Source: Gammaproteobacteria bacterium (GTDB lineage: Bacteria; Pseudomonadota; Gammaproteobacteria; Natronospirales; REEB76). From it: 64,000 bases of DNA. Each line of letters begins with the position of its first letter. The stretch's first letter is position 1. The notes below the pieces were generated by a model. It searched no databases. It was not told where the DNA came from and saw only the letters and a list, made by a program, of their open reading frames with translations. A program made the translations under genes and the position numbers. Below are positions 14,798 to 35,932 of the stretch, in pieces. The stretch spans positions 287,135 through 351,134 of the forward strand of contig JBAWFA010000004.1 in NCBI GenBank assembly GCA_049591455.1, given 5' to 3'.

Positions 14798-18475
<3,678 letters not shown>

Positions 18476-18480
18476 GGTAT

Positions 18481-19416: not shown

Positions 19417-19433
19417 GCTCTGCCTGTCAATAT

Positions 19434-19544: not shown

Positions 19545-19574
19545 AGAGAATTATTCACCCATCGGGAAAGCCTG

Positions 19575-20207: not shown

Positions 20208-20214
20208 CCGGCCA

Positions 20215-22170
20215 TCACAACCTGGAAGACGGCGGCGGAGGTGCCGGCGGTGCCGTACGCGGGGTACGGATTTCCGCGAAGCGCAGGCGCAGACCCAGTT
20301 CCACGGTGCGGTCTGGCGGAATCTGGTAGAAATCGGTGGCGCGGATGGCATTGCGCGACATGAAGGTAAATAATTTTTCACGCCAGGCCATCATGGTGGG
20401 CATGTTCTTCGTGGGCACAAGTGTTTCACGCCCGATGTAGTACGTGGTGGTTTCAGGATCAATCACCAAACCGCAATCCTTGGCGCGCCGCAGCGCTTGC
20501 GGCACGTTGGGTATCTGCATGAAACCGTAGTGAGCTAGCACACGGTAGAAACCCTGATCCAGTTTTTCCACTTCCAAACGACGCTGGGGATGTACGAACG
20601 GCACGTCTTCCGTGAGCACAGTGAGCAGCACGACCTGCTCGTGCAGCACCTGGTTGTGCTCCAGATGATGCTGCAACATGGGTGGCGTGCCAAGATTGGG
20701 CGCGGTCATGAAAATAGCGGTGCCGTGCACGCGCACGGGTTGCAGAAGTCTGATGTGATTCAGGAATTCATGCAGTGGTTCGGTACTGGCCCGCAGACGG
20801 TCAATTAGATTCTGCCGTCCGGTCGCCCATGTGGTCATAATGGTGAAACCCACCAATCCCACCAATAGCGGCAGCCAGCCGCCGTCCCATATCTTGAAGA
20901 TGTTGGCCAGGAAATAAACGAAATCCACGATAAAAAAGCATGAGATGATGGGCGCCACAATGGCGATGTTCCAATGCCAGCGTTCGCGCATGGCCAGGAA
21001 CAGCAGCATGGTGGTAATGAGCATGGTGGAACTCACCGCCACACCGTAAGCGGCGGCGAGATTGTCGGAAGTCTTGAATCCCAACACGATAAGGATGGTA
21101 GCAATGGCCAGAATCCAATTGAGGGAAGGAATATAGATCTGGCCTTCCTTGTCAGGCGAGGTACGCACGATGGTCAGCCGTGGACTCTGGCCGAACTGGA
21201 TAGCTTGGCTCATGAGCGAAAAGGCACCTGAAATGATCGCCTGCGAAGCGATCACCGTGGCGGCAGTAGCCAGGGCCACAAGTGGATAGAGCATCCACGA
21301 CGGCGCCAGGCTGTAAAACAACTGAGTAACGGGCTTATTCGGATTGGCAAGGATGGCCGCACCCTGACCGAAATAATTGAGCAGCAACGCCGGAAAAACG
21401 TACACAAACCACGACAGACGGATGGGGGCCTTGCCAAAATGGCCGATATCAGCATACAACGCTTCGGCGCCGGTCACGCACAGAAACACCGCGCCCAAAA
21501 CCACGATGTCAGCAAAACCGTGGTGAAAGATGAAATGCAGGGCATACGCCGGATTGACGGCTGCCAGCACCGCCGGATAACGCAGAACAGCCACCAACCC
21601 GAGCCAAGCGATGACGAGGAACCACAGCATCATGATGGGGCCGAACACGAAGCCCACCCTTTTGGTGCCGTTTTTCTGAAACACAAAGAGCAAAAACAGC
21701 ACAATGATTGTGATGAAGATGATCACAGAGCGATCCAGGGACGGTGTGGCCACCTGCAGCCCTTCCACGGCGCTCAACACCGAAATGGCCGGCGTGATCA
21801 TGCCGTCGCCGTAGAGCAGCGCCGCGCCGAATATCCCCAGGGAAATGAGGATGCGGGAACGCTTGCTGCGGCGCATGCGCCAAGGATCCAGCAGGGACAG
21901 CAGCGCCAGAATGCCACCTTCGCCCTTGTTGTCCGCACGCAGCACGAACAACTGGTACTTCACACAGACGATGATAATCAGCGACCAGAAAACCAGGGAA
22001 ATCACGCCGAGCACGTTTTCCGGAGTCGGTGTTAGACCATAAGCTGAAGAAAACGGGCTGCTGATGGCGTAAAGAGGACTGGTGCCGATATCGCCGAACA
22101 CCACGCCAAGCGCGCCGAGGCTTAGAGCCAGCATGCGTTTCCGGCCCACCGGCCCTGCCTCACCGTTCAT
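20215..22170 (-). CDS. kup: KUP/HAK/KT-family K+ uptake transporter (start 22170-22257)
   Basis: LGALGVVFGDIGTSPLY near the N-terminus, 12 TM-like segments and a cytoplasmic C-domain. Confidence 0.95.
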   Translation of the reverse strand: MNGEAGPVGRKRMLALSLGALGVVFGDIGTSPLYAISSPFSSAYGLTPTPENVLGVISLVFWSLIIIVCVKYQLFVLRADNKGEGGILALLSLLDPWRMRRSKRSRILISLGIFGAALLYGDGMITPAISVLSAVEGLQVATPSLDRSVIIFITIIVLFLLFVFQKNGTKRVGFVFGPIMMLWFLVIAWLGLVAVLRYPAVLAAVNPAYALHFIFHHGFADIVVLGAVFLCVTGAEALYADIGHFGKAPIRLSWFVYVFPALLLNYFGQGAAILANPNKPVTQLFYSLAPSWMLYPLVALATAATVIASQAIISGAFSLMSQAIQFGQSPRLTIVRTSPDKEGQIYIPSLNWILAIATILIVLGFKTSDNLAAAYGVAVSSTMLITTMLLFLAMRERWHWNIAIVAPIISCFFIVDFVYFLANIFKIWDGGWLPLLVGLVGFTIMTTWATGRQNLIDRLRASTEPLHEFLNHIRLLQPVRVHGTAIFMTAPNLGTPPMLQHHLEHNQVLHEQVVLLTVLTEDVPFVHPQRRLEVEKLDQGFYRVLAHYGFMQIPNVPQALRRAKDCGLVIDPETTTYYIGRETLVPTKNMPTMMAWREKLFTFMSRNAIRATDFYQIPPDRTVELGLRLRFAEIRTPRTAPPAPPPPSSRL

Positions 22171-22445
22171 GACGCGGGACCGCATGCTTTGTGTAGCGGT
22201 ACTTGTTTCCGGCTTGTTCACCCAACGTCTCCCCGCCCCAACACTCCCAAAACACAACCGGCCGGTCTCGTTCGAGCACCAGCCGGCATCGTGCTAATCC
22301 TGCATTTCTATTGGCGGGCGGTTATATGCCCTGCCCCGTTCAGGGCGCGCATTGTACCTCCAAAGCCAATATGCTTAAAACCATATGCTGCCGAGACTGA
22401 CCGGTGGCAAGTGCTTGTTTCGCAAAGATCACGGCACGTGAGCTG

Positions 22446-22459
22446 GATGGCGTCCCCAG
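22446..22459. repeat. attL-side copy of att core (displaced tRNA-Glu 3' end fragment)
   Basis: GATGGCGTCCCCAG is identical to 55044..55057. It equals the complement of the last 12 nt of tRNA-Glu (CTGGGGACGCCA) plus 2 nt. Confidence 0.6.
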
Positions 22460-22601
22460 GGATATTAGAGGCTACCCCTGCTGAGGTAGCGCAGCTCAGA
22501 ACCGAGGTCTCTTGCGGCATTTTAAGCGGCCGGAGGCGCCGGGTCGCCTAGCCGCGCCAGCTTCGTGTATATTTCTTCAGACAAAGCAAGGAGTTAGGAA
22601 C

Positions 22602-23123
22602 ATGAAACCGTTATTTGCATTGATCGTGTGCAGTTTGATGCTGGTAGGGTGTTCGACATTGAACAAAGAAGATACCGGTAACGGCGTAGTCTTTGCTCCG
22701 GATGTCGGTGTGAACATATACCAAGGCCCAGATGACAAGGGGATCCTGTTGACACGGCTCACTACGGCGTCAACTGGATATTGGAGTTATGTATCACCGG
22801 GGTTCGAAATGTTCACGGCTGAATATAGCAACGGACGCGGTGGCGATGCGACTGAATCAATAAATGTATCCGCTGGCAAAGTGTATTTCTTCACACTCAC
22901 TCAGATCCCTGGAATGAATACGCCGGACGTGAAGATCAGCCGGGTCGATGCCATTCCTGGGGTGGTTATTCCGCCAACCCATGCGGGGATGGCAAGTGTG
23001 TATTTCGTATATCCAGACAACATTGCATTGCAGTCGATAATTAAACGACAGAGAAGCGAGGATGCCCTGCGCCAACAGCTTGGCTGCACTGATGAGCAGA
23101 TGCGGATGGGAACCTGCCAATAG
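22602..23123 (+). CDS. Lipoprotein, prophage-end cargo (moron), possibly DUF2846-like
   Basis: An ATG after the GGAG-containing spacer gives MKPLFALIVCSLMLVGC|S with a lipobox. It is the only plus-strand gene at this end and is visibly more A/T-rich than its neighbours. Confidence 0.6.
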   Translation: MKPLFALIVCSLMLVGCSTLNKEDTGNGVVFAPDVGVNIYQGPDDKGILLTRLTTASTGYWSYVSPGFEMFTAEYSNGRGGDATESINVSAGKVYFFTLTQIPGMNTPDVKISRVDAIPGVVIPPTHAGMASVYFVYPDNIALQSIIKRQRSEDALRQQLGCTDEQMRMGTCQ

Positions 23124-23146
23124 CGCTTAATACGCACCAGTTACAA

Positions 23147-23488
23147 CTATTCTGAAGCGTCGGCCTCGGCGCGCAGCATAAGCTCAAGCCGCGCCAGTGC
23201 ATTCCATGCGACTTGGGCAGCATGCAGAAAATGGCTGTCTGCATCGACCGGGCCGTCTATCTCTGCCAAGTGTCGGCCGAGCGCATCCGTGTAACGCTGA
23301 ATCCCGTTCGGAACGCTCGACCATCCATGCCAGCTGTATTTGCGAGCGCCAAACTCCGTCACGCGCGCCACCTCCGCGCATGCCAGAGGGAAGTGCTGCA
23401 GCAATCCACTCACGATCGGGGATTTGCCCCCATCGAGCTTCGCGCCAGGCGTCGCCGGCGAGAGGCCGTGCGGATCCTGTTCTGTCAT
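23147..23488 (-). CDS. DUF5664 / dATP-dGTP diphosphohydrolase N-terminal-like domain protein
   Basis: Pattern KLDGGKSP..LACAEVARVTEFGARKY..W..RYTDALGRHL....D..SHFLHAAQVAWNALARLEL matches the phage DUF5664 signature as I recall it. Its ATG overlaps the o-spanin stop. Confidence 0.5.
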   Translation of the reverse strand: MTEQDPHGLSPATPGAKLDGGKSPIVSGLLQHFPLACAEVARVTEFGARKYSWHGWSSVPNGIQRYTDALGRHLAEIDGPVDADSHFLHAAQVAWNALARLELMLRAEADASE

Positions 23489-23805
23489 GACGCCGGCGGC
23501 GCGATCGAGCTGGCAGCGGTCGGTGCTTTTCCAGCCTCACTTCTTATTTTGTCGAGCTGCTGATTGCACGCCATCAAATCGGCGAGTGTCTCCTGCTGCA
23601 ATAGCAACAGATCGCCATTCGTAACCGGTGTGCCACGTGGAACCAGACACGGCGCGAGATCAGCAGCCGGTATCGGCTGGTACTGGATTAGTGTGGCTCG
23701 CACTATTTGGGGTGGCGCTGACACCGGCACAGAACTGCAGGCCTGCAAGAGCGCCAGCAGGAATACTGACGCCACTCCAAGCCGCCACGGTCGGATTCTC
23801 TTCAT
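23485..23805 (-). CDS. Outer-membrane spanin (Rz1-like lipoprotein), overlapped architecture
   Basis: The internal ATG at 23805 gives MKRIRPWRLGVASVFLLALLQAC|SS (lipobox) and a Pro-rich mature part. It starts inside the i-spanin gene in another frame and extends past its stop. Confidence 0.6.
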   Translation of the reverse strand: MKRIRPWRLGVASVFLLALLQACSSVPVSAPPQIVRATLIQYQPIPAADLAPCLVPRGTPVTNGDLLLLQQETLADLMACNQQLDKIRSEAGKAPTAASSIAPPAS

Positions 23806-24118
23806 TGGCTTTGATCCTCGCAGTGAGAGTTGAAACGGTTGTGGCAAGCGCCAGCTGGCGCGCCCTGGCATCGGCTACTGCCTGATTCGCGGCCGTGACA
23901 GCCGCTTGCAGCTGCACCTGCGTGGCCGCATCAGCCTGAGACTGCGCTTGAGCCGCGGCCTTCGTGGCCGTGACCATTGCTTGAGCTTCGGCCGCCATCA
24001 GCGCATTCACCTTCGCGGTGCCGGCGAGCTTGCCGGTGTGCACGCCATACAAAAATGCACCGATGACGATGAGAGCGATGACGCCGAGCCCAGCCAGGTA
24101 TTTGTAAACGGCGCTCAC
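23660..24118 (-). CDS. Inner-membrane spanin (Rz-like)
   Basis: GTG start, an N-terminal TM segment (YLAGLGVIALIVIGAFLYGV) and a long Ala/Gln-rich coiled-coil periplasmic domain. A lipoprotein gene is embedded in it. Confidence 0.65.
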   Translation of the reverse strand: MSAVYKYLAGLGVIALIVIGAFLYGVHTGKLAGTAKVNALMAAEAQAMVTATKAAAQAQSQADAATQVQLQAAVTAANQAVADARARQLALATTVSTLTARIKANEENPTVAAWSGVSIPAGALAGLQFCAGVSATPNSASHTNPVPADTGC

Positions 24119-24282
24119 TAAAACACTTCCTTCAGGAAGCTCTTGACCTTCGCGACGAAGGCAGCGGCACCAGTCACGGGCTGCCCGGTTGAACTAGTGG
24201 CAGGCGTGCTTGCCGCGGTGGTGCCGCTCTTGGCCACTTTGTAGGCGGCGTAGGCGACCAGGATGATGAGGGCGATTTTCAT
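24118..24282 (-). CDS. 54-aa single-TM protein (hypothetical, lysis-region)
   Basis: MKIALIILVAYAAYKVAKSG.. Only the C-terminal 54 codons of track ORF 24118..24663 look coding. Its stop overlaps the Rz GTG by 1 nt. Confidence 0.4.
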   Translation of the reverse strand: MKIALIILVAYAAYKVAKSGTTAASTPATSSTGQPVTGAAAFVAKVKSFLKEVF

Positions 24283-24293
24283 TTGCGATTCTC

Positions 24294-24590
24294 CTAGTGG
24301 GTTGCGAAGTTGTGGGCGAGGATGAGTGCGCCGGCGCCACCACAGACGGCCGAGAGGCCGCCTCCGAAAGCGCCGGCATCGAACGGCTGCTTGAGCACGA
24401 GGACTGCCCAGGTCTGGATAAACAGGTAAGTCAGGACCGCAAGCGCGCCGAGCACGCGGCTCAAATCCGTGGTGCCGTCCGCCTGGACGAACATCTGGCC
24501 GTGGGCAATACCCTTGAGTGGCGCGATCGTGAATCCCTTCACGATCCCGATAGCGCCGCTGCAGAGGACTTTGAGGCGATCGAACATCAC
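24294..24590 (-). CDS. 98-aa two-TM membrane protein, holin candidate
   Basis: Hydrophobic segments VLGALAVLTYLFIQTWAVLVL and GGGLSAVCGGAGALILA. Lies just upstream of the spanins. Its ATG overlaps the stop of the previous ORF. Confidence 0.4.
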   Translation of the reverse strand: MMFDRLKVLCSGAIGIVKGFTIAPLKGIAHGQMFVQADGTTDLSRVLGALAVLTYLFIQTWAVLVLKQPFDAGAFGGGLSAVCGGAGALILAHNFATH

Positions 24591-24871
24591 TGCGCCTGAG
24601 TCGCCGGCAATGTACGGACAGACACCCCAACTGAGCCACTCCCATCAGACTCGGCATGCCCATCCGCAGCCACTACCAGCACGTGGCCGCTCGGAACAGT
24701 GAGTGAGGCAGCGAGTGCCTGGGCAGCTGTGGCGGCCGCGGCTGTCTGCGCCGGGGTCGCCTGCGGACTCTTATCGGCGACGGTTGAATGATTGAACAGT
24801 TTCTCGATATCGGCCTTAATGGCTTCGATATCCTTTTCGATGACAATTTTGATGCTATGTGACCAACTCAT
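24587..24871 (-). CDS. Hypothetical protein (94 aa)
   Basis: ORF in the operon frame chain with an Ala/Thr-rich centre. No motif recognised. Confidence 0.35.
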   Translation of the reverse strand: MSWSHSIKIVIEKDIEAIKADIEKLFNHSTVADKSPQATPAQTAAAATAAQALAASLTVPSGHVLVVAADGHAESDGSGSVGVSVRTLPATQAQ

Positions 24872-24905
24872 GACTGTTTGCTCCTGTGGTTGAAATAAAT
24901 TCTGT

Positions 24906-25136
24906 CTATTGCTTGCACGGCTGCTGCATCAGCCAGTCCACGTTGCGCCTGAGATCCACGATCTGCTCGCGTGTGACCGCACTCGCGGCGACGTAGGCTG
25001 AGTGGTTCGCCGCCTGCGCCTCTTTCTGCGATTCGTAGCCTGAATAGAGTGGATACAGCGCACCAAGGATCCCGAGCGCGCCCGCGATCGCCGCCATGCT
25101 TGGCCAGTGGCTCATGAAGGTCCGGCGCTTTTTCAT
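24906..25136 (-). CDS. Hypothetical single-TM protein (76 aa)
   Basis: MKKRRTF.. followed by a TM segment MAAIAGALGILGALYPLY. Confidence 0.4.
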   Translation of the reverse strand: MKKRRTFMSHWPSMAAIAGALGILGALYPLYSGYESQKEAQAANHSAYVAASAVTREQIVDLRRNVDWLMQQPCKQ

Positions 25137-25151
25137 CTTGCATGGACCGGG

Positions 25152-25688
25152 TTAAAGCACGAGCCAGCTGAATAGAGCGATCCCGGTGATTCGAACCAGC
25201 GACGCCGTCACGCACAGTGCATAGCTCTTTTCCTCAAGCGCCGTCTGTTGAGGCGCAAAGCGGTTCCAGAGCACGGCACTGATGGGCGCGGCCAGCGCGA
25301 GCCAGAGCCAGGGCGAATGCAGGAAATAGTCTGTCTCGGCCAGGGTTGCGCAAACGAATGCCAGGCCGGCCGAAATCACATGGATCCGTTCAAGCGTGGC
25401 GGCTTCGGATGGCTGCGACAGCATGAGCCACTTTGTGGCCACCACCACGATGATCGACGCCGCACACACGATCAGTGAGATCAGCCAGGGCAGCCCGGCG
25501 TGTAGTGGGATCAGCAGCAGCATGCACAAGGCGAGGCCTAGGAAGGATGCACTCTGCAGTTTCCCGTAGGGACCGGTCAGGTAACTCGACATCGGCGCGC
25601 TGATCGGGTTCAGGGTCTTGTTCATCGCCTCCGCGTAGACGTTCCCGAAGATGAAAAACAGCACAAGTGCGAATCGCAGGATGTTCAT
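25152..25688 (-). CDS. Polytopic membrane protein (178 aa, hypothetical)
   Basis: Internal ATG 25688 gives MNILRFALVLFFIFGNVYA.. plus about 4 further hydrophobic helices. The upstream track extension is Arg/Ser/Cys-rich and unlikely to be coding. Confidence 0.5.
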   Translation of the reverse strand: MNILRFALVLFFIFGNVYAEAMNKTLNPISAPMSSYLTGPYGKLQSASFLGLALCMLLLIPLHAGLPWLISLIVCAASIIVVVATKWLMLSQPSEAATLERIHVISAGLAFVCATLAETDYFLHSPWLWLALAAPISAVLWNRFAPQQTALEEKSYALCVTASLVRITGIALFSWLVL

Positions 25689-25698
25689 GGATGGATCC

Positions 25699-26178
25699 TC
25701 ATTGGTTGGAAATGGTGAGTGTGTGGCCCGTGGCGTTTTCGATATCGCCGTCAGTGGCCAGTACCTGGACGATGGCCGTGAGCGCGTCGTCCGATGACAG
25801 CACTGATGCCAGCAGCCCTTTGCCGATATCGAGCAGTCCGCGCGCGAGGCCTGGCGCGATACAGCCTTCGAGCTGCCATGCCTGGTTGGCCGAGTGGATC
25901 TCGCAGCAGCTGCGCGCTGTGACGCCGGTGGGCACCAGTGACGGATAGGCATAGATGCCGAGCGCCGGATTGTGCAGGCACCAGGTCCAGCGCCCGTGCC
26001 TGGGTGAGTAGTAAGGCATCAGAACGTAGACGCCCACGGGCACGCAGGACTGATCGGGTTCGTTATCGGCCCATGGCAGTTCCATGGTGTATATCGGCGG
26101 CAGCGGTGCATCGGTGATGCTGAATTTGCCCTGGGCGCAGTCGATGCTCCGTAGATCCCGGATGAGCTGTGCTTGCAT
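25699..26178 (-). CDS. DUF5675-like protein (candidate non-canonical cell-wall hydrolase)
   Basis: MELPWADNEPDQSCVPVGVY...CCEIHSANQAWQLEGCIAPG matches the DUF5675 pattern (LPW.dN....SCIP.G.Y ... IH.gN....eGCI..G) as I recall it. The His..GC dyad resembles the YkuD fold. Confidence 0.45.
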   Translation of the reverse strand: MQAQLIRDLRSIDCAQGKFSITDAPLPPIYTMELPWADNEPDQSCVPVGVYVLMPYYSPRHGRWTWCLHNPALGIYAYPSLVPTGVTARSCCEIHSANQAWQLEGCIAPGLARGLLDIGKGLLASVLSSDDALTAIVQVLATDGDIENATGHTLTISNQ

Positions 26179-26188
26179 GGATATCTCC

Positions 26189-26611
26189 CTAGGGGTGGAT
26201 GATGCCTTCGCGGACGAAGAGCAGCGTGGTTACCACGATCCAGATCAGGGTCAGCGCTGACCAGAAGCCGATCCCGCGATTCACCCACTTCTGCGCAAAT
26301 TCCTTGGTCTTGACGATGCTGACTTCGATTTGTGCATGTGCCTGTTCATCGGCCTTTTCATGCTCATCGTGGCGACGGGTCAGTGCATCGATTGAAGCGA
26401 ACGCGCGCTGCAGGCCTTCGGACTGTGCCTTCTGCTCTCCCTGCAGCCTGATGATCTCGCCGAGCTGTCCACGCATGGCTTCCATCGTTCCTTCCTGTCG
26501 CTGCATGGTCATCACCAGTTGCTCATTGGTCTGACGAATGCTTTGCAGGGATAACTCACAGGCTTGCAGGCGTCCTTCCATATCGATTGCTCGAACGGTT
26601 TTGATGTTCAC
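26189..26611 (-). CDS. Coiled-coil protein with C-terminal TM anchor (hypothetical)
   Basis: GTG start, heptad-like Q/E/R-rich helix, and a C-terminal WSALTLIWIVVTTLLFV. Confidence 0.4.
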   Translation of the reverse strand: MNIKTVRAIDMEGRLQACELSLQSIRQTNEQLVMTMQRQEGTMEAMRGQLGEIIRLQGEQKAQSEGLQRAFASIDALTRRHDEHEKADEQAHAQIEVSIVKTKEFAQKWVNRGIGFWSALTLIWIVVTTLLFVREGIIHP

Positions 26612-26623
26612 CGTCGCCTCCTG

Positions 26624-26983
26624 TCAGGGTTGTGAAAGATACGCGCGCTCAGCCGCGCATTCCGCCGCCAGGCCGTCCTCATTCGTGAGGACCGCGTTGA
26701 GGGCTTCCTGTTTGATCGCGGCCGGGTTCGTAGAACCATCGATGAGACTCATCTTCGGGCAGCCCGCGTGTATATGCACCACGATGGGCTGCCCTTCGCT
26801 GTTCAGGATGGGCTTGCCGGCCGCATCCACGGCGCGCGCCGTGGCTTTCCACGAAAACATATGCGGTGCTGCGTGTTCGCCTTTCTTGAAGCGCACGGCT
26901 GCAAGATCACCGGTCGAGAGCTTATAGCCGGTCTCACCCGGGTTCATGTTGGGGATGGTGGCTGCTTCAAAAGTGATGCTCAT
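26624..26983 (-). CDS. Hypothetical protein downstream of tail fibre (119 aa)
   Basis: Internal ATG 26983 (MSITFEAATIPNMNPGE..), 8 nt after the fibre stop. No motif recognised. The position suggests a fibre accessory or chaperone role. Confidence 0.4.
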   Translation of the reverse strand: MSITFEAATIPNMNPGETGYKLSTGDLAAVRFKKGEHAAPHMFSWKATARAVDAAGKPILNSEGQPIVVHIHAGCPKMSLIDGSTNPAAIKQEALNAVLTNEDGLAAECAAERAYLSQP

Positions 26984-26990
26984 GGGGACC

Positions 26991-29900
26991 TCACGGTTTA
27001 CCTGCTCCATTGTGCAGAATCGCGCCGTCTCTATAGGCAAGGAAGGCATGCGGCTCCGCGACGTTCAGAATGATCTTCTCCGATTCATCTGTGAAAGGTT
27101 CGATGCTTTGTACGATGAGTCCGCGCGCGAGGGCATCGCCTGGCTTCAAATTGTGGGCGCGTATCCACTTCCCTTCTGCATCCAGGAAGGGCTGCGTTTC
27201 CGTCACGAAGTAGGCGTGACGATCTATCGTGATTTTGAGCCACGTGCTGCACGGCTCACGAGAGAGACTGAGGATTGGCGCGGTGCCATCGGGCGTCAAT
27301 ACTTCGTCACCAACAACCAGTTGGTCTGCAAGTTTGAATGGAGCCTCAACTGTGACAACGGGTTGGTAGGGATGCAGGCAGCCACCTGTACCGCCGCTGC
27401 CACCGGAACCGCTTGCCGGGGTTTCCCAAAACCCGAGATAAACCGTGTCCGGGCTGCCAGTCAGTGAACTGATCTTGCTGGTGCTGGCATTGAGCGTGGC
27501 TGAGCCGCCCTGGAATCCGGGATCAATGTAGTACAAATAATAGGTGGTGCTGGCGGTCAGGCCGGATACGCTGCTCGAGTTGTACGAAACATTCCCGGTG
27601 CCACTGCCCCCCATTTCAAGCGTGCAGGCGCTTGCTGTTATCTTATTGGGATTCGGTGAGGTAAGTGTCAGTCCTGAAATGTAGTACCCGACACCCGCGC
27701 TTGTAACCGCGCGAACGGTGGTCGCGGAACCAAGTTGCGCGCCTCCACCATCAATGACCGTCTGCGTTCCAGTTCTAAGCGTTGGGTTCTTCAGGGTCGC
27801 TGTGCCGCCGGAGGCGCCCCCATTCACAACGACGCGGAAGGCGCCGTAAGCGGTGCCACTCGGGCAATTGTATGAAACTATGGAAGTAACCCCGTCGGTG
27901 CTAGTAGCGGTTGGAAAAATGGAGGAGATGAATGTTTCCTTGTCAGCTTCGTAGAACAAAAGTTGAGGATAGACAGTCGCGGTGCCAGTTACCGCCGTCA
28001 AATTCACAGAGATGGAAACAGGCGTGTTTGGATTCATTGGGAAAAATGCCGTGTTTCCCTGGTCGTCAGTTGCAGTGAGAGTGGGGCTTCCGGATGCTGC
28101 GGCTGTAATGTCAATCTTGGGTGAAGTCAACGTGAAGGAGGCACTACAGGTCCAATAATCCATCGTTGCAAGCGTGGCGTTCTTGAGCAGGTTACTGTCC
28201 CAGGTGACCTGCGTGACCATGGTGATGTTTGTAACATCGGAGTTAGGGCTTGCCTGTGACCAGAAATTCGTGGCTGTGACGTAGTACCAATACTCGGTTT
28301 CGTACTCAGCTGAGCTGTCCAGATAGCTGTCGCCCACGACATTCGCGATCGCCGTGAAGCCGGAACTGCTGGAGGTGCTGCTGCGATAGACTGTCTGGTA
28401 ATCGAAGGTGTTCGGCGCCGGGCTTGTCCAATTAAGCAGGATGCCTTTGGCGGAACTGCTGGAAGTCAGACTGGAGGGTGCCCCCGGCGCGCTCGGGGTG
28501 ATGTCATAGAGCTCCTGGTAATCCGGTGTGTTGTAGGCCTGGTAAACGCCGTCGGGTGTTGACGGTAAGGTGTAGGTCCCGCTATTTTCCTGCACCAGCA
28601 TCATCTTGATGGTGTAATTGGTATTGTCGAGCCTGTATTGCATGATGCGGAACGGGGCATCCGAGAGATTCAGCTCACTGATATTCACCTCGATGACATC
28701 GCCGCCCTTGAAGTTGAGCGCTTTGAGGTTGCAGACCAGGTTCAGAACCTGCTTGTTGCGGGTCTTTTTAAGCGCGATGCGCTCAAGGATCTGGCACTGA
28801 AACTGGTTGTTGCAACCCGGGATCGTGTCGCTCACCCACAGCCGCACATTGCCATCATCCGCTTCGTAGGTTGAATTCGTCAGCGGCGCGCCCTGTGCCT
28901 GGTTGTAGTCCTGCTGCGGCTCCTGTCCATAGGTGAACTTCACGGCATTCCCCATTTGCGAGCGTTGGATCTGTGGCGAGTAGCCAGCGGATCCGGCCAG
29001 GAATGTCTCATCCAGCGTTCCGCTGGAGGTGGTCGTGGCGCCGGCATACATGTAGATCTGACCGCCGGAAACGACAATGAAGCCCGCCATGGTCTTCAAG
29101 ATATCGGCCACGTTTTGATCACAGTTCTGGTTCGTCTGCACCGCCATGTTGCACGAATAAGTGCTTACATCGACGGTGGTGGACCAGGCGCCATCAGAGA
29201 ACGTCGCGCCATAGGCCGGCACCGAAACTTCTTCATCACAGATGTTCGCGGCCGCGGCCACGCAAGCCCAGTTCACCTGGGAGTTGATGACGCTTGAACC
29301 TGAATAGGTGCCGGGGCTGTATCCACACCCACCATCATTCTTCAGCCGTGTCAGATAGTCGGCCAGGATCAGTGCGGGGTTGCTTGAGAAGGCCCACGTC
29401 GTCGTATCGGTCAACCGCTGTGAGCCGCTGCCACCGTTGTCCGAATCAAGCCGCGGGTCGTAGAGCAGCTGTCCGGCAATGACGACCTTGAGTGTGCCCG
29501 GCGTGTTCAGACCGTTCGGGAAGGCACCGGTGAAGGTCCCCTGGTCGGCCGACATGAACAGTACCCAGGTGCTGTAGGAGATCCCGTACCCGATGAAGGT
29601 ACTGGCGACATCAAGTTCGGAGGTAAGAATAGGATCAGCGGTCGTTTGTGAGCCATCGCTGAAACTCATCCACAAATTACCGGCTAGATTATTCCATGGT
29701 TCGTTGGAGCCGTCGTCCACGCCCTGTGTGATTGAACAGGCGCCCGTACCGCTCGCCTCCCCACGTCCCGCATTCCAGCCGCCGAATGAGTCATCTGTCA
29801 GCAGCGGGACAAACACATCGTTGATATAAAAGCCCTGGATGCCCTCCACCGGCATCCCAGCGGTGCCGGCTGAGTTCTGGCGCGTGAGGCTGTGGGCAAT

Positions 29901-30200
29901 CGTGACCGTGAGATAAGCGTTCGTGTTCGAACCGTTGCTGCCGTAGGGATTGCAATAGCACAGGACACCACCGGTGCAGATCTCCCCATACACGATCTGT
30001 TGATTGGCAACACTGCCGCGGACGATACCGTCTTGTCCCGACGTGACCGGGTTCGGCATCAGCAGCAGCGACAATTCTGTGAAGGCGCCGCTGAAGAACA
30101 TGGCAGCGCCCATTGAGGCCAGTTCTTCGCCACCGAACTCATAGAGGACGGCGCCCACTACCATTTCGATAGCGCCCATTGTTTTGCCGGAGGAGCTCAT
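26991..30200 (-). CDS. Host-specificity / central tail fibre protein with FN3 domain and C-terminal Hint (intein-like) domain
   Basis: 1069 aa located after the GTA-like gp12-14 analogues. It has an FN3-like segment (APSSLTSSSSAKGILLNWTSP..YQTVYRS..YWYYVTA) and a Gly/Ser linker. This is followed by C-LHPYQPVV..VGDEVL..TETQPFL..PHAFLAYRDGAILHN-GAGKP-stop. Confidence 0.85.
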   Translation of the reverse strand: MSSSGKTMGAIEMVVGAVLYEFGGEELASMGAAMFFSGAFTELSLLLMPNPVTSGQDGIVRGSVANQQIVYGEICTGGVLCYCNPYGSNGSNTNAYLTVTIAHSLTRQNSAGTAGMPVEGIQGFYINDVFVPLLTDDSFGGWNAGRGEASGTGACSITQGVDDGSNEPWNNLAGNLWMSFSDGSQTTADPILTSELDVASTFIGYGISYSTWVLFMSADQGTFTGAFPNGLNTPGTLKVVIAGQLLYDPRLDSDNGGSGSQRLTDTTTWAFSSNPALILADYLTRLKNDGGCGYSPGTYSGSSVINSQVNWACVAAAANICDEEVSVPAYGATFSDGAWSTTVDVSTYSCNMAVQTNQNCDQNVADILKTMAGFIVVSGGQIYMYAGATTTSSGTLDETFLAGSAGYSPQIQRSQMGNAVKFTYGQEPQQDYNQAQGAPLTNSTYEADDGNVRLWVSDTIPGCNNQFQCQILERIALKKTRNKQVLNLVCNLKALNFKGGDVIEVNISELNLSDAPFRIMQYRLDNTNYTIKMMLVQENSGTYTLPSTPDGVYQAYNTPDYQELYDITPSAPGAPSSLTSSSSAKGILLNWTSPAPNTFDYQTVYRSSTSSSSGFTAIANVVGDSYLDSSAEYETEYWYYVTATNFWSQASPNSDVTNITMVTQVTWDSNLLKNATLATMDYWTCSASFTLTSPKIDITAAASGSPTLTATDDQGNTAFFPMNPNTPVSISVNLTAVTGTATVYPQLLFYEADKETFISSIFPTATSTDGVTSIVSYNCPSGTAYGAFRVVVNGGASGGTATLKNPTLRTGTQTVIDGGGAQLGSATTVRAVTSAGVGYYISGLTLTSPNPNKITASACTLEMGGSGTGNVSYNSSSVSGLTASTTYYLYYIDPGFQGGSATLNASTSKISSLTGSPDTVYLGFWETPASGSGGSGGTGGCLHPYQPVVTVEAPFKLADQLVVGDEVLTPDGTAPILSLSREPCSTWLKITIDRHAYFVTETQPFLDAEGKWIRAHNLKPGDALARGLIVQSIEPFTDESEKIILNVAEPHAFLAYRDGAILHNGAGKP

Positions 30201-30601
30201 TCAACCCTCCAGGACTGCTTCGCCAGCGAAATATCAAACACGTTAAGACGTTCATCGCCCGGGCACACGATGGTGGTTCCGGTGCAGACGCCTATGCAGT
30301 CCAGTCCATTAGGCGCTGTGAACAGAACGATGTCGCCGCGGCGCGCACACAACGGTCCCTTGGGCTCGCCCAGGAAATGCGTCAGCAGGCCAGCCAAACC
30401 GCCGTAGGTGGCAATGATCTTGTAGGCTTCTTCACGGTTGGAATAGGTGCCACGCAGCGCCGCGGCCTTGTCTTCGCCCGTCATGGCAAGCACGGCATCC
30501 GCCGCAAACAGGCAGCAGTCGTTCACCCCCCATTTGTGCGCAGTGCGCTTTCGCTCATCCACGAGCTTCAAGAGTTGTTCAAGCCACGCCTTCTTTCGCA
30601 T
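30197..30601 (-). CDS. Tail-associated NlpC/P60-like / DUF6950-like protein (GTA gp14 position)
   Basis: HKWGVNDCCLFAADAV (putative catalytic Cys context). Size and position between the gp13-like gene and the fibre. Its stop overlaps the fibre ATG (ATGA). Confidence 0.45.
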   Translation of the reverse strand: MRKKAWLEQLLKLVDERKRTAHKWGVNDCCLFAADAVLAMTGEDKAAALRGTYSNREEAYKIIATYGGLAGLLTHFLGEPKGPLCARRGDIVLFTAPNGLDCIGVCTGTTIVCPGDERLNVFDISLAKQSWRVE

Positions 30602-30603
30602 GT

Positions 30604-31311
30604 TCAATCCTGTTTGTAGAACCCAGCCTCGCCGGCACCATTCCCGGGTTTTGTATTCCCACCGCGAGCATTGATGGCAAACTGAGACGGTCCTTGCATG
30701 CCCCAGTAGGTATAGGTGTAGGTCAGCGACGCCACATATTCATAGAACGTGTCAGTGCTGAAGGTGGTATTGTCAGCGGCACCCCGTGCCTGTTGGTCTT
30801 GTACCGTTTGCAGCATCCCGCTTTGGCGGTTCTGCAGGTCTGCGAGAAGGTTCTCAGCGTTGATCGTGATCGTGCCGGTGTTCTTTCCGAGCGAGATCGT
30901 GCAATCGCCCAGGAACATCGGCGTGCTGAAGAATGGGGTACTGTTCACCAGGTCATGGTTGGAATCCAAGAACCCCAGCGACCAGACGATGTTGACCCAT
31001 TGCACGTTGTTCGTACCACTGAGATTGTCGATCACGGTCTGATCGCAACCCGAGAGCATGAGCGTCATTGGCCGTGGCACACCATCGGTGCCTTCGTTGT
31101 AGTTCGTAATGGAGCCGAAGGGCATGCCGGTGGAGGTCACGGGGTTATAGGTATTACCGCCCCACGTATAGGATTTATGCGCGTTCGTGAGATAAAGATT
31201 GCCAGTGGGCAGATCGATTTCGAGGAACTCGACGATGCCGACAACGGTGGCGGCAACTTCGGTTGCCGGGTCTACCGTGTAACCAGAGGCTGGCAGCAGC
31301 GCGCGTGTCAT
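30604..31311 (-). CDS. Distal tail protein, DUF2163/GTA gp13-like
   Basis: 235 aa, positioned in the conserved TMP-gp12-gp13-gp14-fibre order, with ATGA coupling to its upstream neighbour. Similarity is judged by pattern only. Confidence 0.45.
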   Translation of the reverse strand: MTRALLPASGYTVDPATEVAATVVGIVEFLEIDLPTGNLYLTNAHKSYTWGGNTYNPVTSTGMPFGSITNYNEGTDGVPRPMTLMLSGCDQTVIDNLSGTNNVQWVNIVWSLGFLDSNHDLVNSTPFFSTPMFLGDCTISLGKNTGTITINAENLLADLQNRQSGMLQTVQDQQARGAADNTTFSTDTFYEYVASLTYTYTYWGMQGPSQFAINARGGNTKPGNGAGEAGFYKQD

Positions 31312-32123
31312 AATGTCACATCCTCCATGAGCGACAAGGCCATGGCGGCGATCCGCGGCGGCGTATAGCTGATGCTGGCATCCGGCTTGCTGAACGCAAA
31401 CACCGCATTACACGGTGACAATACGATGGAATTGCCACTGACCGGACTGAATCTCAATGCAGGCTCGAAGTCGATCGTAGCTACGCCAGAGCCATTACTG
31501 GCGGCGCTCGCCGTCACCATCAGCAACTGATGCTGCATGGTGGTTGTGTAATCCGTGGTGTAGGTCTGCAGTACGGCATTCACATATACGTTGTAGCCTG
31601 TGAAGAATGCATTGGGGAGATTGAATGTTGTGGCGACTCCATTGCCGGTCCCGATTGCAATGGAATTACCATAGAAATCTTCGGCGGTGATGGCATAGGT
31701 GTTGGCAGGGGCGGTCAAGAAGGTGATGGTGCCCCCATAGACTTGGAACATATCGCCCGGCAGCAGGATCCCGGAGATTGAGTCTGTCCAACCTTCGGTG
31801 AGCAGGCTGTTCCCGGTCTGCGAGCCACCATCGACGGTGGGCGTTCCTGTTCCAACACCCTGAATCTCATAGGCGTAATTTGGCAGCGCGGTACGAAAGC
31901 CGGCGCGCGACATCTGCATGGACCAGGCCAGCAACAACTGCGAGTCCGCATAGCTCAGCACGTTCCAGCTAAGGTCACAGCTGAAATAGGCACCCGGCCG
32001 CGCGATGTCCTGGAATGTGCCTGAGAGCGGGGATGTATTGCGGGCATCGAACCTGTTGAGTTTCCAATCTGATTTGTTGGCGTATTTGGAGAGGCTTGGG
32101 AAGGTCAAGATCGTCGGGTTCAT
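31308..32123 (-). CDS. Distal tail protein, DUF2460/GTA gp12-like
   Basis: Immediately follows the tape measure. ATG 32123 overlaps the TMP stop (ATGA). Size is about 270 aa. Confidence 0.45.
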   Translation of the reverse strand: MNPTILTFPSLSKYANKSDWKLNRFDARNTSPLSGTFQDIARPGAYFSCDLSWNVLSYADSQLLLAWSMQMSRAGFRTALPNYAYEIQGVGTGTPTVDGGSQTGNSLLTEGWTDSISGILLPGDMFQVYGGTITFLTAPANTYAITAEDFYGNSIAIGTGNGVATTFNLPNAFFTGYNVYVNAVLQTYTTDYTTTMQHQLLMVTASAASNGSGVATIDFEPALRFSPVSGNSIVLSPCNAVFAFSKPDASISYTPPRIAAMALSLMEDVTL

Positions 32124-35928: not shown

Positions 35929-35932
35929 GGCT

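What the first reader, a model, noticed from the sequence alone, without database searches (positions are those of the whole stretch)
25699..26178. Lysis region lacks a canonical muramidase; a DUF5675-like His/Cys protein is the best endolysin candidate
Seen in the sequence: the block upstream of the spanin pair (23485..24118) holds several small membrane proteins. I see no glycoside-hydrolase, amidase or CHAP motif there. The only enzyme-like ORF is 25699..26178, with LPWADNEPDQSCVPVGVY and CCEIHSANQAWQLEGCIAPG.

Established knowledge: the H...GC arrangement resembles the catalytic His/Cys of YkuD-type L,D-transpeptidase folds. DUF5675 is a phage-associated family with no assigned function.

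Inference: this protein may be a non-canonical peptidoglycan peptidase acting as the endolysin. The coiled-coil tail-anchored protein upstream (26189..26611) and the 2-TM protein (24294..24590) are holin candidates.
Basis: partly seen in the sequence, partly recalled or inferred. Interest (0 to 1): 0.58.

Follow-up and report, generated by a model that had tools for sequence, protein, structure and literature searches.

The report
Phage lysis enzyme of unusual type
A prophage gene of "unknown function" (DUF5675) is most likely the enzyme the phage uses to cut the bacterial cell wall at lysis, using a Cys/His cell-wall peptidase design related to a bacterial toxin rather than a classical lysozyme, though no one has yet shown its activity.

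Summary
ORF 25699..26178 (-) is a real 159-aa gene and a clear DUF5675 member (Pfam E=5e-15). It lies 1.6 kb from an Rz/Rz1-type spanin pair, among small membrane proteins. No lysozyme, amidase or CHAP domain is found in that block.

- **Family link.** DUF5675 is a remote relative of Tlde1, a type VI secretion toxin with an altered L,D-transpeptidase (YkuD-like) fold. R89, H95 and G105-C106 align with Tlde1a R115, H121 and G130-C131. The direct match to canonical YkuD fails, and Foldseek against the PDB finds nothing.
- **Position.** In unrelated phages the gene sits where an endolysin should be. It follows the late activator in Mu-like vibriophages and lies next to annotated holins. It is the only accessory gene in a 4.9-kb microvirus. 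In a jumbo-phage giant protein it is fused to an SLT domain.
- **Localisation.** The protein has no signal sequence, so it needs a holin.

Main caveats: no biochemistry exists, the bond cleaved is unknown, and the prophage also encodes an exported, weakly SLT-like protein at 47272..47796. A 2026 preprint already calls DUF5675 "C82-like" from predicted structure. Moderately interesting: a large, untested candidate endolysin class.

The parts
25699..26178 (-). DUF5675 protein, 159 aa, soluble, net charge -7. It is the candidate holin-dependent endolysin, a Tlde1/L,D-transpeptidase-like Cys-His peptidase.
   Evidence: Pfam DUF5675 5.4e-15. AF2 model pLDDT 97.9. No TM or signal sequence. hhalign to Tlde1. 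Context evidence.
25849..25914 (-). Putative catalytic core, R89-x5-H95-x9-G105-C106-I-A-P-G110. R89, H95 and C106 are invariant in 144 family members.
   Evidence: Alignment A2. The core aligns with Tlde1a R115/H121/G130-C131. Tlde1a residue roles come from PMC9638812.
26038..26082 (-). N-terminal conserved motif: E33 (invariant), W36, then S44-C45-V-P47-x-G-x-Y.
   Evidence: A2 conservation. hhalign aligns 'SCVPxGxY' to the Tlde1a-family consensus 'QCxPDxGPIPEGxY'.
26189..26611 (-). 140-aa coiled-coil protein with a C-terminal TM (residues 114-132). It is a holin, antiholin or lysis-regulator candidate.
   Evidence: TM scan. A 68%-identical homologue lies directly upstream of DUF5675 in L052, and proteins of the same architecture do so in L050 and L001. 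No family hit.
25152..25688 (-). 178-aa multi-TM protein directly downstream of DUF5675. It is the most conserved neighbour in the related cassettes examined and the best holin candidate.
   Evidence: 3 TM windows found here and up to 6 in homologues. Homologues of 30-41% identity lie adjacent to DUF5675 in L050, L051 and L052. No family hit.
24906..25136 (-). 76-aa basic protein with a weakly hydrophobic N-terminal segment and a C-terminal Cys. Role unknown.
   Evidence: Translation. By eye it resembles the 77-aa ORF downstream of DUF5675 in L001; this was not tested statistically.
24587..24871 (-). 94-aa soluble protein conserved in the cassette.
   Evidence: 45% identity to L052 2501..2803, the gene next to DUF5675 there. 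No TM.
24294..24590 (-). 98-aa protein with two TMs. It is a class-II-like holin candidate.
   Evidence: TMs at residues 46-64 and 74-92. A 50%-identical homologue occupies the same place in L050.
24118..24282 (-). 54-aa basic protein with a hydrophobic N-terminus and a good SD sequence, just upstream of the i-spanin.
   Evidence: Translation and upstream sequence. Not further tested.
23660..24118 (-). i-spanin (Rz-like), with an N-terminal TM.
   Evidence: phrog_1327, phrog_1403 and phrog_312, all Rz-like spanin families. TM at residues 8-26. Homologues in L051 and L052.
23485..23805 (-). o-spanin (Rz1/LysC-like lipoprotein) overlapping the i-spanin gene.
   Evidence: Pfam LysC 4.5e-10. NCBIfam P2_Rz1 3e-8. 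phrog_456 2.5e-15. Lipobox LLQAC.
47272..47796 (-). Rival or second cell-wall enzyme: a 174-aa exported, weakly SLT-like protein in the replication/nin-like region.
   Evidence: PF01464 E=0.013, below cut-off. E-S and G-x-x-Q-L..P.TA motifs seen by eye. N-terminal TM at residues 7-25 followed by AYA|QA. NCBI name. phrog_600, unknown function.
22446..22459 (+). Left prophage junction (att core GATGGCGTCCCCAG). It places the lysis cassette at the prophage end.
   Evidence: A 14-bp repeat also at 55044..55057, which is the 3' end of tRNA-Glu. Host genes lie to the left.

Best explanation
The window holds a ~32.6-kb prophage (about 22446..55057). Its late operon ends in a lysis cassette. Gene 25699..26178 encodes the cassette's endolysin, a soluble 159-aa single-domain DUF5675 protein.

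**Proposed mechanism**
- The protein accumulates folded in the cytoplasm.
- It reaches the periplasm when a holin opens the inner membrane. The holin is one or more of the adjacent membrane proteins: 25152..25688, 24294..24590 or 26189..26611.
- It then cuts peptide stems of mDAP-type peptidoglycan.
- The spanin pair (23485..24118) then disrupts the outer membrane.

**Proposed chemistry**
- Cys106 acts as the nucleophile and His95 as the general base.
- Arg89 holds a substrate carboxylate, as Arg115 is proposed to do in Tlde1a.
- The enzyme forms and hydrolyses a thioester at an L,D peptide bond.

**What is shown and what is inferred**
- Shown: family membership, conservation of R/H/GC, the remote profile similarity to Tlde1, the absence of an export signal, and lysis-cassette synteny.
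- Inferred: peptidoglycan as the substrate, the endolysin role, and which bond is cut. The bond would be mDAP-D-Ala, including within 4-3 cross-links, or L-Ala-D-Glu.
For: **Family and structure**
- DUF5675 membership.
- The family is large: 8008 clusters at E<=1e-3.
- The 159 best hits have a median length of 154 aa, and 153 of them lack any TM-like window.
- E33, S44, R89, H95, C106 and S129 are invariant in 144 diverse members.
- The AF2 model is confident: pLDDT 97.9, pTM 0.91.

**Link to Tlde1 and L,D-transpeptidases**
- 21 of 144 members weakly hit Pfam Tlde1_dom, best E=0.0015. No other family is hit by more than 2 members.
- hhalign of DUF5675 against 12 Tlde1 sequences scores 32.1, P=1.5e-4. 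It pairs R89/H95/G105-C106 with R115/H121/G130-C131.
- At a greedier setting the alignment is one collinear stretch of 123 columns. It includes the SCVPxGxY motif and the helix after the Cys strand.
- 200 column-shuffled controls gave mean 11.7, sd 2.6 and max 24.4. Tlde1 against the bona fide YkuD enzyme LdtB scores only 22-26.5 in the same test.
- Tlde1a is a proven peptidoglycan LD-carboxypeptidase/transpeptidase with catalytic H121/C131 (PMC9638812).
- BFVD Foldseek gives a hit to a crAss-like phage 'L,D-carboxypeptidase/transpeptidase' at E=3.8e-5, TM 0.64.
- crAss-like phage records annotate homologues as 'transpeptidase catalytic domain protein'.
- A preprint calls DUF5675 'C82-like'.

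**Lysis context**
- In the window the gene lies next to spanins and TM proteins.
- The same cassette is conserved in L050, L051, L052 and L001, down to 43% identity.
- In Mu-like Vibrio phages the gene lies in the block between the late activator and the terminase genes. It directly follows the activator in ZX4290 and is one gene further on in martha 12B12.
- Alteromonas phage XX1924 has a GTA_holin_3TM gene (1.4e-14) abutting it.
- Salinibacter phage M8CC-19 has an annotated holin three genes downstream.
- In 32 IMG/VR loci, small same-strand neighbours are enriched for TM proteins: 42/74 against 56/210, P=7.5e-6.
- The commonest neighbour PHROG is a holin family.

**By elimination**
- 81 unannotated CDS from 4 genomes carrying DUF5675 showed no peptidoglycan-hydrolase Pfam family among the 25 of 29 families listed.
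- A 4.9-kb microvirus has DUF5675 as its only gene besides Rep, VP5, capsid, pilot and scaffold. Several other microviruses carry the domain.

**Domain fusion**
- Xanthomonas phage Xoo-sp14 has a 2420-aa protein that carries DUF5675 next to an SLT domain.
Against: - No enzymatic or genetic test of any DUF5675 protein was found.
- Foldseek of the high-confidence model against the PDB, which should include Tlde1a and YkuD structures, gave no match better than E=0.66.
- Sequence profiles find nothing relevant in the PDB.
- hhalign probability is only 51.5%. With a Tlde1a-only profile the catalytic motif is not the top alignment.
- The known activity of the nearest characterised relative does not by itself dissolve a sacculus. 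That activity is trimming or exchanging D-Ala4.
- The prophage also encodes an exported SLT-like protein.
- Large phages carrying DUF5675 (for example pf16 and Xoo-sp14) are big enough to encode other lysins. DUF5675 is therefore not always the sole wall enzyme.
- None of the window's membrane proteins matched a known holin family.
Confidence: 0.65

Rival explanations
1. The exported SLT-like protein (47272..47796) is the real endolysin, of signal-peptide or SAR type. DUF5675 is then an accessory peptidoglycan-remodelling enzyme, such as an LD-carboxypeptidase like Tlde1, that only assists or modulates lysis.
For: - It gives a weak SLT match with E-S and G-x-x-Q-L motifs.
- NCBI names it a lytic transglycosylase.
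- Its N-terminal Ala/Cys-rich TM at residues 7-25 resembles a SAR domain or signal peptide.
- It lies between the replication genes and the terminase, where lambdoid phages keep their lysis genes.
- A 2-TM protein lies 1.4 kb away at 45580..45855.
- Tlde1a's known chemistry is carboxypeptidase and exchange activity, not endopeptidase activity.
Against: - It is 21 kb from the spanins and not in a cassette with them.
- The SLT score is below Pfam's cut-off.
- phrog_600 is not a lysis family.
- It has no detectable relatives, so context cannot be tested.
- DUF5675 occupies the endolysin slot in phages and microviruses that have no SLT-like gene.
Confidence: 0.15
2. DUF5675 is a peptidoglycan enzyme used at infection rather than at lysis. 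It would be a virion-associated or ejection-stage wall-opening enzyme encoded next to the tail genes.
For: - The gene lies just downstream of the tail-fibre gene here and in most IMG/VR loci.
- The domain is embedded in giant proteins of 868 to 2420 aa in jumbo phages and viral contigs.
- A Ralstonia phage RP12 homologue lies under a feature annotated 'tail fiber protein'.
Against: - Free-standing ~150-aa forms dominate the family.
- Cellulophaga phage phi39:1 gp30 carries no virion mass-spectrometry note, while its neighbouring structural proteins do.
- In Mu-like phages the gene is far from the tail genes, at the lys position.
- Microviruses have no tails.
- The gene is flanked by holin-type and spanin genes.
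Confidence: 0.08
3. DUF5675 is a Cys-His hydrolase with a non-peptidoglycan substrate, for example a processing protease or an anti-defence enzyme. Its place in lysis cassettes would then be incidental.
For: Foldseek found no PDB match. Homology to Tlde1 is remote. No biochemistry exists.
Against: - Fusion to an SLT domain.
- Recurrent adjacency to holins and spanins in unrelated phages.
- Presence as the only accessory gene in a microvirus.
- Conserved R/H/GC residues aligning with a proven peptidoglycan enzyme.
Confidence: 0.07
4. The 113-aa protein at 23147..23488 is the endolysin, as its best PHROG label suggests ('endolysin; inhibits RNA polymerase', phrog_5033, E=4.9e-33).
For: PHROG hit. 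The gene abuts the spanins, and a 64%-identical homologue ends the cassette in L050.
Against: Pfam assigns it confidently to dGTP_diPhyd_N, the N-terminal domain of a dATP/dGTP diphosphohydrolase: 68 bits against a cut-off of 27. No amidase family appears even at E<=1. Other PHROGs it hits are nucleotide-metabolism families. The PHROG label looks like an annotation artefact.
Confidence: 0.03

Closest known systems
Tlde1a (Salmonella Typhimurium T6SS effector; Pfam PF10908 Tlde1_dom/DUF2778; PDB 7UMA)
   Same: - Small single-domain Cys-His enzyme.
- R-x5-H ... G-C-hydrophobic core with the same R-to-H spacing and nearly the same H-to-C spacing (10 against 11).
- An upstream 'C-V-P ... G-x-Y' strand motif.
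- A helix and a final strand after the Cys strand.
- Acts, or is predicted to act, on peptide stems of mDAP-type peptidoglycan in the periplasm of Gram-negative bacteria.
   Different: - Similarity is only at the profile level: no Pfam hit for the window protein and weak hits for 21 of 144 relatives.
- The S-H pair before G-C in Tlde1a (S128, H129) is L-E here.
- The Tlde1a capping subdomain is absent, and DUF5675 instead has a beta-hairpin insert after the Cys strand.
- It has no T6SS or immunity-gene context and lies in a phage lysis cassette.
- Its activity is unknown.
YkuD-type L,D-transpeptidases and hydrolases (Pfam PF03734; MEROPS C82; e.g. E. coli LdtB, H. pylori Csd6)
   Same: Cys nucleophile in a G-C-hydrophobic strand, with an upstream His. 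The relationship is inferred transitively through Tlde1. Some of the Tlde1a homologues found carry both PF03734 and PF10908 hits.
   Different: - No PF03734 hit in any of 144 members, even at E<=10.
- hhalign against the LdtB catalytic domain is at noise level, score 13.4.
- The HXX14-17-(S/T)HGCh motif is not met.
- Foldseek did not retrieve YkuD structures.
- The protein is cytoplasmic with no signal peptide, unlike periplasmic Ldts.
Peptidase-type endolysins of Gram-negative phages and microviruses (e.g. M15 family), and the rare 'YkuD' class in the PhaLP lytic-protein database
   Same: - Small globular single-domain protein without a cell-wall-binding domain.
- Encoded in a cassette with a holin and spanins.
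- Peptidase rather than glycosidase chemistry.
- PhaLP already lists 10 phage lytic proteins with YkuD-class domains, one of them PF10908.
- M15 peptidases serve as endolysins in dsDNA viruses and some ssDNA viruses.
   Different: It has a different fold and catalytic type: thiol rather than zinc. DUF5675 is absent from PhaLP's domain list. No DUF5675 protein has been assayed.
LysPd160, a DUF5675 protein called 'C82-like' in bioRxiv 10.64898/2026.04.11.717860
   Same: Same Pfam family, and the same proposal that the domain is a YkuD/C82-like lysin.
   Different: That proposal rests on predicted-structure clustering of oral-phage proteins. The text I could read reports no activity assay or genomic-context analysis for LysPd160. 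The window protein comes from a different host group, and its identity to LysPd160 is unknown.

Membership tests
DUF5675 (Pfam PF18925) | Score above the Pfam gathering cut-off (26.7 bits) | tested here: met
   55.7 bits, E=5.4e-15, covering profile positions 2-109 of 114.
DUF5675 (Pfam PF18925) | Family-invariant residues present (E33, S44, R89, H95, C106, S129) | tested here: met
   All are present in the window protein and invariant in the 144-sequence alignment A2.
Tlde1 (Pfam PF10908) | Pfam HMM match | tested here: not met
   No hit for the window protein even at E<=10. 21 of 144 relatives give sub-threshold hits, best E=0.0015.
Tlde1 (Pfam PF10908) | Profile-profile homology covering the catalytic core | tested here: inconclusive
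   hhalign score 32.1, P=1.5e-4, probability 51.5%. 0 of 200 column-shuffled controls reached it, max 24.4. With a Tlde1a-only profile only the N-terminal motif aligns, P=0.005.
Tlde1 (Pfam PF10908) | Conserved Arg, catalytic His and Gly-Cys (R115, H121, G130, C131 in Tlde1a) | tested here: met
   R89, H95, G105 and C106 align to them. S128 and H129 of Tlde1a are not conserved; the window protein has L103 and E104.
Tlde1 (Pfam PF10908) | T6SS effector context with a cognate immunity gene | tested here: not met
   The gene lies in a prophage late operon between the tail-fibre and spanin genes, with no T6SS genes in the window regions scanned.
Tlde1 (Pfam PF10908) | LD-carboxypeptidase / D-amino-acid exchange activity on tetrapeptide stems | not testable with these tools
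   Needs muropeptide HPLC or mass spectrometry with purified protein.
YkuD L,D-transpeptidase (PF03734, MEROPS C82) | Pfam HMM match or profile similarity to a bona fide member | tested here: not met
   0 of 144 members hit PF03734 at E<=10. hhalign against the LdtB catalytic domain scores 13.4, P=0.17.
YkuD L,D-transpeptidase (PF03734, MEROPS C82) | Motif HXX14-17-(S/T)HGCh | tested here: not met
   H95 and C106 are 11 positions apart, and L-E precedes G-C instead of S/T-H.
YkuD L,D-transpeptidase (PF03734, MEROPS C82) | YkuD beta-sandwich fold with Cys and His juxtaposed | tested here: inconclusive
Canonical holin-dependent endolysin (functional class) | Encoded in a lysis cassette with holin and/or spanin genes | tested here: met
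   Spanins lie 1.6 kb away, with TM proteins between and beside the gene. The cassette is conserved. Holin families lie next to homologues elsewhere.
Canonical holin-dependent endolysin (functional class) | Soluble cytoplasmic protein without an export signal | tested here: met
   No hydrophobic window in the protein. 153 of 159 relatives likewise lack one.
Canonical holin-dependent endolysin (functional class) | Degrades peptidoglycan and is required for lysis | not testable with these tools
   Needs zymogram or turbidity assays and a gene knock-out.

The most novel reading that the evidence does not exclude
DUF5675 would be a very large, experimentally untouched class of thiol endolysins (about 8000 clusters at 50% identity). 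It would share ancestry with the T6SS toxin Tlde1. It would lyse cells as an L,D-endopeptidase, cutting the mDAP-D-Ala bond of the donor stem inside 4-3 cross-links (or L-Ala-D-Glu). To my knowledge no endolysin has that combination of bond specificity and catalytic type. Phage lysis enzymes and interbacterial toxins would then have exchanged the same catalytic module, and the domain would be a new cysteine-based scaffold for engineered lysins.
Probability: 0.25. Interest if true: 0.7.

Novelty: new variant of a known kind. Interest (0 to 1): 0.5.

Why it matters
- **Annotation.** If correct, a Pfam 'domain of unknown function' found in thousands of phage lineages becomes the missing endolysin of those viruses. 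These include Mu-like vibriophages, marine Bacteroidetes phages, crAss-like phages, jumbo phages and many microviruses. It would close an annotation gap: none of the phage records I inspected label it as a lysin, and four genomes that carry it have no annotated endolysin.
- **Enzyme class.** It would add a thiol L,D-peptidase to the small set of endolysin catalytic types.
- **Evolution.** It would link phage lysis enzymes with T6SS antibacterial effectors.
- **Annotation trap.** The neighbouring 113-aa gene carries a PHROG label of 'endolysin' that is probably wrong.
- **Testability.** One clone plus C106S and H95A mutants, with muropeptide analysis, would be enough.

Tried and rejected
- **Megablast.** Window 23000..30000 against the phage collection gave no match.
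- **PDB sequence searches.** Profiles A1 and A2 gave nothing relevant; the only hits were chance matches to Vpx.
- **Foldseek against the PDB.** No significant match.
- **Locus search with A2.** A1 worked.
- **Direct comparison with LdtB.** hhalign of DUF5675 against LdtB gave noise. The 'YkuD member' filing is therefore rejected in favour of 'Tlde1-like, remotely'.
- **HMM-to-sequence searches.** Tlde1 HMMs against DUF5675 sequences gave only 10-14 bits.
- **SLT-like protein.** The homologue search returned only the protein itself. Single-sequence AF2 gave pLDDT 40, which is unusable. The PDB sequence search was empty.
- **Holin identification.** Pfam, PHROG and NCBIfam gave no hits for the window's membrane proteins.
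- **phrog_5033 'endolysin' label.** Considered for 23147..23488 and rejected on Pfam evidence.
- **Tail-fibre C-terminus.** It was checked as a Hint/intein-like module against PDB sequences, with no support.
- **Literature.** Searches for an assayed DUF5675, YkuD or LD-carboxypeptidase endolysin found none.
Full report
**1. What is at the coordinates.** ORF 25699..26178 on the minus strand starts at ATG and encodes 159 aa. A GGGAG ribosome-binding site lies upstream. An identical protein is in NCBI as 'DUF5675 family protein' from a 443-kb Gammaproteobacteria MAG contig. Pfam assigns it to PF18925 DUF5675 (E=5.4e-15, 55.7 bits, cut-off 26.7). PHROGs assigns it to phrog_1501, which has no known function. 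The protein has no hydrophobic segment and a net charge of -7.

**2. The setting is a prophage.**
- Positions 1..22257 encode host genes: KdpA, a TonB-dependent receptor, a P-type ATPase, MetH, MetF and Kup.
- A 14-bp repeat, GATGGCGTCCCCAG, occurs at 22446 and at 55044. The second copy is the 3' end of a tRNA-Glu gene. This bounds a ~32.6-kb prophage.
- Reading the minus strand, the order is: replication genes, an exported SLT-like protein, a VRR-NUC nuclease, terminase, head and tail genes, tape measure, DUF6950, and a 1069-aa tail fibre.
- The block in question follows: a ~120-aa protein, a coiled-coil protein with a C-terminal TM (26189..26611), and DUF5675. After it come a multi-TM protein (25152..25688), three small proteins, a two-TM protein (24294..24590) and a 54-aa protein.
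- The block ends with an overlapping i-spanin/o-spanin pair (23660..24118 and 23485..23805) and a dGTP_diPhyd_N protein.
- None of these proteins hits a lysozyme, amidase, M15, M23 or CHAP family; the 54-aa ORF 24118..24282 was not scanned.

**3. What the protein is.**
- The family is large. A profile of 12 relatives finds 8008 clusters (50% identity) at E<=1e-3, and the 150 best are almost all single-domain proteins of about 150 aa.
- In 144 diverse members, E33, S44, R89, H95, C106 and S129 are invariant. C45, P47, G49, Y51, N98, G105 and G110 are nearly so.
- AlphaFold2 with this alignment gives a very confident all-beta plus one-helix model, pLDDT 97.9.

Three lines nonetheless connect the family to L,D-transpeptidase-like enzymes.
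- **(a) Pfam scan of the family.** Scanning all 144 members at a permissive threshold, 21 hit PF10908 Tlde1_dom (best E=0.0015). No other family is hit by more than two members.
- **(b) Profile-profile comparison.** I compared the family with Tlde1 sequences taken from the alignment published with the Tlde1a structure paper.
  - The score is 32.1, P=1.5e-4. It places R89, H95 and G105-C106 on Tlde1a R115, H121 and G130-C131.
  - At a greedier setting the alignment becomes one collinear stretch of 123 columns. It also pairs 'SCVPxGxY' with Tlde1's 'IPxGxY' strand, and pairs the helix that follows the Cys strand.
  - Two hundred column-shuffled controls averaged 11.7 (sd 2.6, max 24.4). The accepted pair Tlde1/LdtB scores only 22-26.5 in the same test.
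- **(c) Independent annotation.**
  - Foldseek against BFVD retrieves DUF5675 proteins and a crAss-like phage protein named 'L,D-carboxypeptidase/transpeptidase' (E=3.8e-5, TM 0.64).
  - crAss-like phage records annotate homologues as 'transpeptidase catalytic domain protein'.
  - A 2026 preprint calls DUF5675 'C82-like' on predicted structure.

Tlde1a itself is a proven peptidoglycan LD-carboxypeptidase and D-amino-acid exchanger with catalytic H121/C131 and a conserved R115 (PMC9638812).

The direct link to canonical YkuD fails. There are no PF03734 hits, and hhalign against LdtB is at noise level. The H-to-C spacing and the residues before G-C do not fit the YkuD motif. I therefore file the protein as DUF5675, remotely Tlde1-like, and not as a YkuD member.

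**4. Why an endolysin.**

*Conserved cassette.* In four related loci (43-73% identity) the gene keeps the same neighbours: the coiled-coil/TM protein, homologues of the multi-TM protein (30-41% identity), the two-TM protein (50%), i-spanin homologues and the terminal dGTP_diPhyd_N gene.

*Endolysin position in unrelated phages.*
- In Mu-like Vibrio phages vB-Vv-ZX4290 and martha 12B12 the gene lies between the late transcriptional activator and the small proteins and terminase. It directly follows the activator in ZX4290 and is one gene further on in martha 12B12. From my own knowledge of Mu, that is where Mu keeps lys.
- In Alteromonas phage XX1924 the abutting downstream gene is a GTA_holin_3TM holin, E=1.4e-14.
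- In Salinibacter phage M8CC-19 it follows the tail protein and lies three genes upstream of an annotated holin.
- In Cellulophaga phage phi39:1 it follows the tail and pectate-lyase genes. It lacks the virion mass-spectrometry note that its structural neighbours carry.
- In crAss-like cr50_1 a 'putative pholin' lies in the same block.

*Statistics.* In 32 non-redundant IMG/VR loci, small same-strand neighbours carry TM segments in 42/74 cases against 56/210 for more distant ORFs (Fisher P=7.5e-6; crude ORF calls). The most frequent PHROG among 149 neighbours is a holin family. Spanin and late-activator families also occur, and no endolysin family is among the 25 of 58 families listed.

*Elimination.*
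- I scanned 81 unannotated CDS from martha 12B12, phi39:1, XX1924 and a microvirus. They gave 29 Pfam families, and none of the 25 listed is a wall hydrolase.
- Apis mellifera-associated microvirus 8 (4.9 kb) has six genes: Rep, VP5, capsid, pilot, scaffold and DUF5675.
- Several other microviruses of 4.8-7.2 kb carry the domain.

*Fusion.* A 2420-aa protein of jumbo phage Xoo-sp14 carries DUF5675 (residues 1767-1889) next to an SLT domain (2030-2118). By my own knowledge this peptidase-plus-glycosidase pairing is typical of virion-associated wall hydrolases.

*Hosts.* Every host named in the records listed in the two phage-collection searches is Gram-negative. That fits a globular enzyme without a wall-binding domain.

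**5. Mechanism proposed.**
- *Shown:* a soluble protein without an export signal, in a cassette with membrane proteins and spanins.
- *Inferred:* it accumulates in the cytoplasm and crosses the inner membrane through holin lesions. Cys106 and His95 then attack an L,D peptide bond of the stem peptide through a thioester, with Arg89 binding a carboxylate. The spanins then finish the outer membrane.

Tlde1a's known reaction is removal or exchange of D-Ala4, which would not dissolve a sacculus. The endolysin reading therefore predicts endopeptidase behaviour. The enzyme could cleave the same mDAP-D-Ala bond when D-Ala4 is engaged in a 4-3 cross-link, or it could cleave L-Ala-D-Glu. This step is speculative and is the main open question.

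**6. Rivals.**
- **The exported SLT-like protein (47272..47796).** It is a real alternative or a second enzyme. It has a weak SLT hit below the Pfam cut-off and an N-terminal Ala/Cys-rich TM followed by AYA|QA, and NCBI names it a lytic transglycosylase. It is 21 kb from the spanins, has no detectable relatives, and could not be modelled.
- **A virion-associated role.** The jumbo-phage fusions suggest it, but the Mu-like, microvirus and phi39:1 evidence argues against it.
- **The 'endolysin' PHROG label on 23147..23488.** This is almost certainly an annotation artefact, because the protein is a dGTP_diPhyd_N domain.

**7. Novelty and verdict.**
- Peptidase endolysins are well known.
- PhaLP already lists a rare 'YkuD' class of ten proteins, one of them PF10908.
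- A 2026 preprint proposes DUF5675 as a C82-like lysin domain from predicted structure, without reporting an assay in the text I could read.
- What this analysis adds is the specific Tlde1 link with aligned catalytic residues, broad lysis-cassette synteny, the microvirus and SLT-fusion evidence, and a clear statement of what fails (YkuD membership, Foldseek against the PDB).

I rate it a new variant of a known kind. My confidence in the endolysin reading is about 0.65, and the interest is moderate.

Noticed in passing
window 22446..22459 and 55044..55057; tRNA-Glu 55046..55121(-), tRNA-Ala 55184..55259(-): A 14-bp direct repeat, GATGGCGTCCCCAG, coincides with the 3' end of tRNA-Glu. It marks a ~32.6-kb prophage integrated at that tRNA. 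Host genes (KdpA, MetH, Kup and others) lie to the left. A 497-aa ORF at 53593..55086(+), probably the integrase, abuts the tRNA but was not scanned.
   Followed up: partly
window 23147..23488 (-): The 113-aa protein's best PHROG (phrog_5033, E=4.9e-33) is labelled 'endolysin; inhibits RNA polymerase'. Pfam places it confidently in dGTP_diPhyd_N. This is an annotation trap that would make pipelines call the wrong gene the endolysin. A 64%-identical homologue ends the same cassette in L050.
   Followed up: partly
window 47272..47796 (-): An exported protein that is weakly SLT-like (below the Pfam cut-off). Its Ala/Cys-rich N-terminal TM resembles either a SAR domain or a signal peptide (AYA|QA). 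It lies in the replication/nin-like region next to a VRR-NUC nuclease. It had no relatives in the 5.8-billion-protein search.
   Followed up: partly
window 26991..30200 (-), C-terminal ~140 aa; also L052 3..617: The tail fibre ends in a Gly/Ser linker, then 'GGCLHP...', and finally '...AILHNGAGKP'. By eye this looks like a Hint/intein-like autoprocessing module. A relative in L052 has the same 'GCLHP' junction. Pfam and PDB sequence searches gave no support.
   Followed up: partly
window 25152..25688 (-) and homologues L050 5474..5995, L051 1248..1808, L052 1003..1551: A ~180-aa multi-TM protein with no family assignment lies adjacent to DUF5675 in all four of these loci. It could be an unusually large holin or another partner of the enzyme.
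   Followed up: partly
L049 715..7977 (Xanthomonas phage Xoo-sp14, MT939492.1): A 2420-aa 'hypothetical protein' combines DUF5675 (residues 1767-1889) and SLT (residues 2030-2118). It is probably a giant virion-associated wall-degrading protein. BFVD shows DUF5675 inside viral proteins of 868, 1210 and 1251 aa, the last from Ralstonia phage RP31.
   Followed up: partly
L004 7..384; L056 3009..3419; several other records: DUF5675 recurs in Microviridae-type ssDNA genomes of 4.8-7.2 kb, in one case as the only gene beyond the core set. This suggests a lysis enzyme for microviruses. By my own knowledge these lack a phiX174 E-type lysis gene.
   Followed up: partly
protein P0025 (251 aa): A DUF5675 domain is fused to a C-terminal region with two hydrophobic segments. 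This may be an enzyme-membrane anchor or enzyme-holin fusion. It is a single example.
   Followed up: no
window 45580..45855 (-): A 91-aa protein with a strongly hydrophobic stretch (residues ~21-60; by eye two TM helices, though the scan called one window) and a C-terminal zinc ribbon. It lies just upstream of an HNH-like ORF and the small terminase gene. Role unknown.
   Followed up: no
window 22602..23123 (+): A lipoprotein (lipobox LVGC) on the opposite strand at the prophage end. It gives a weak hit to Cor superinfection-exclusion proteins (phrog_1119, E=0.004) and is a likely moron.
   Followed up: no
L053 4066..4362 (Rheinheimera phage Barba8S gp130); L005 7413..7712; L006 21774..22076: A DUF2730 protein (N-terminal TM plus coiled coil) recurs a few genes downstream of DUF5675 in unrelated phages. 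Its architecture mirrors the window's 26189..26611 protein, which has a coiled coil plus a C-terminal TM.
   Followed up: no
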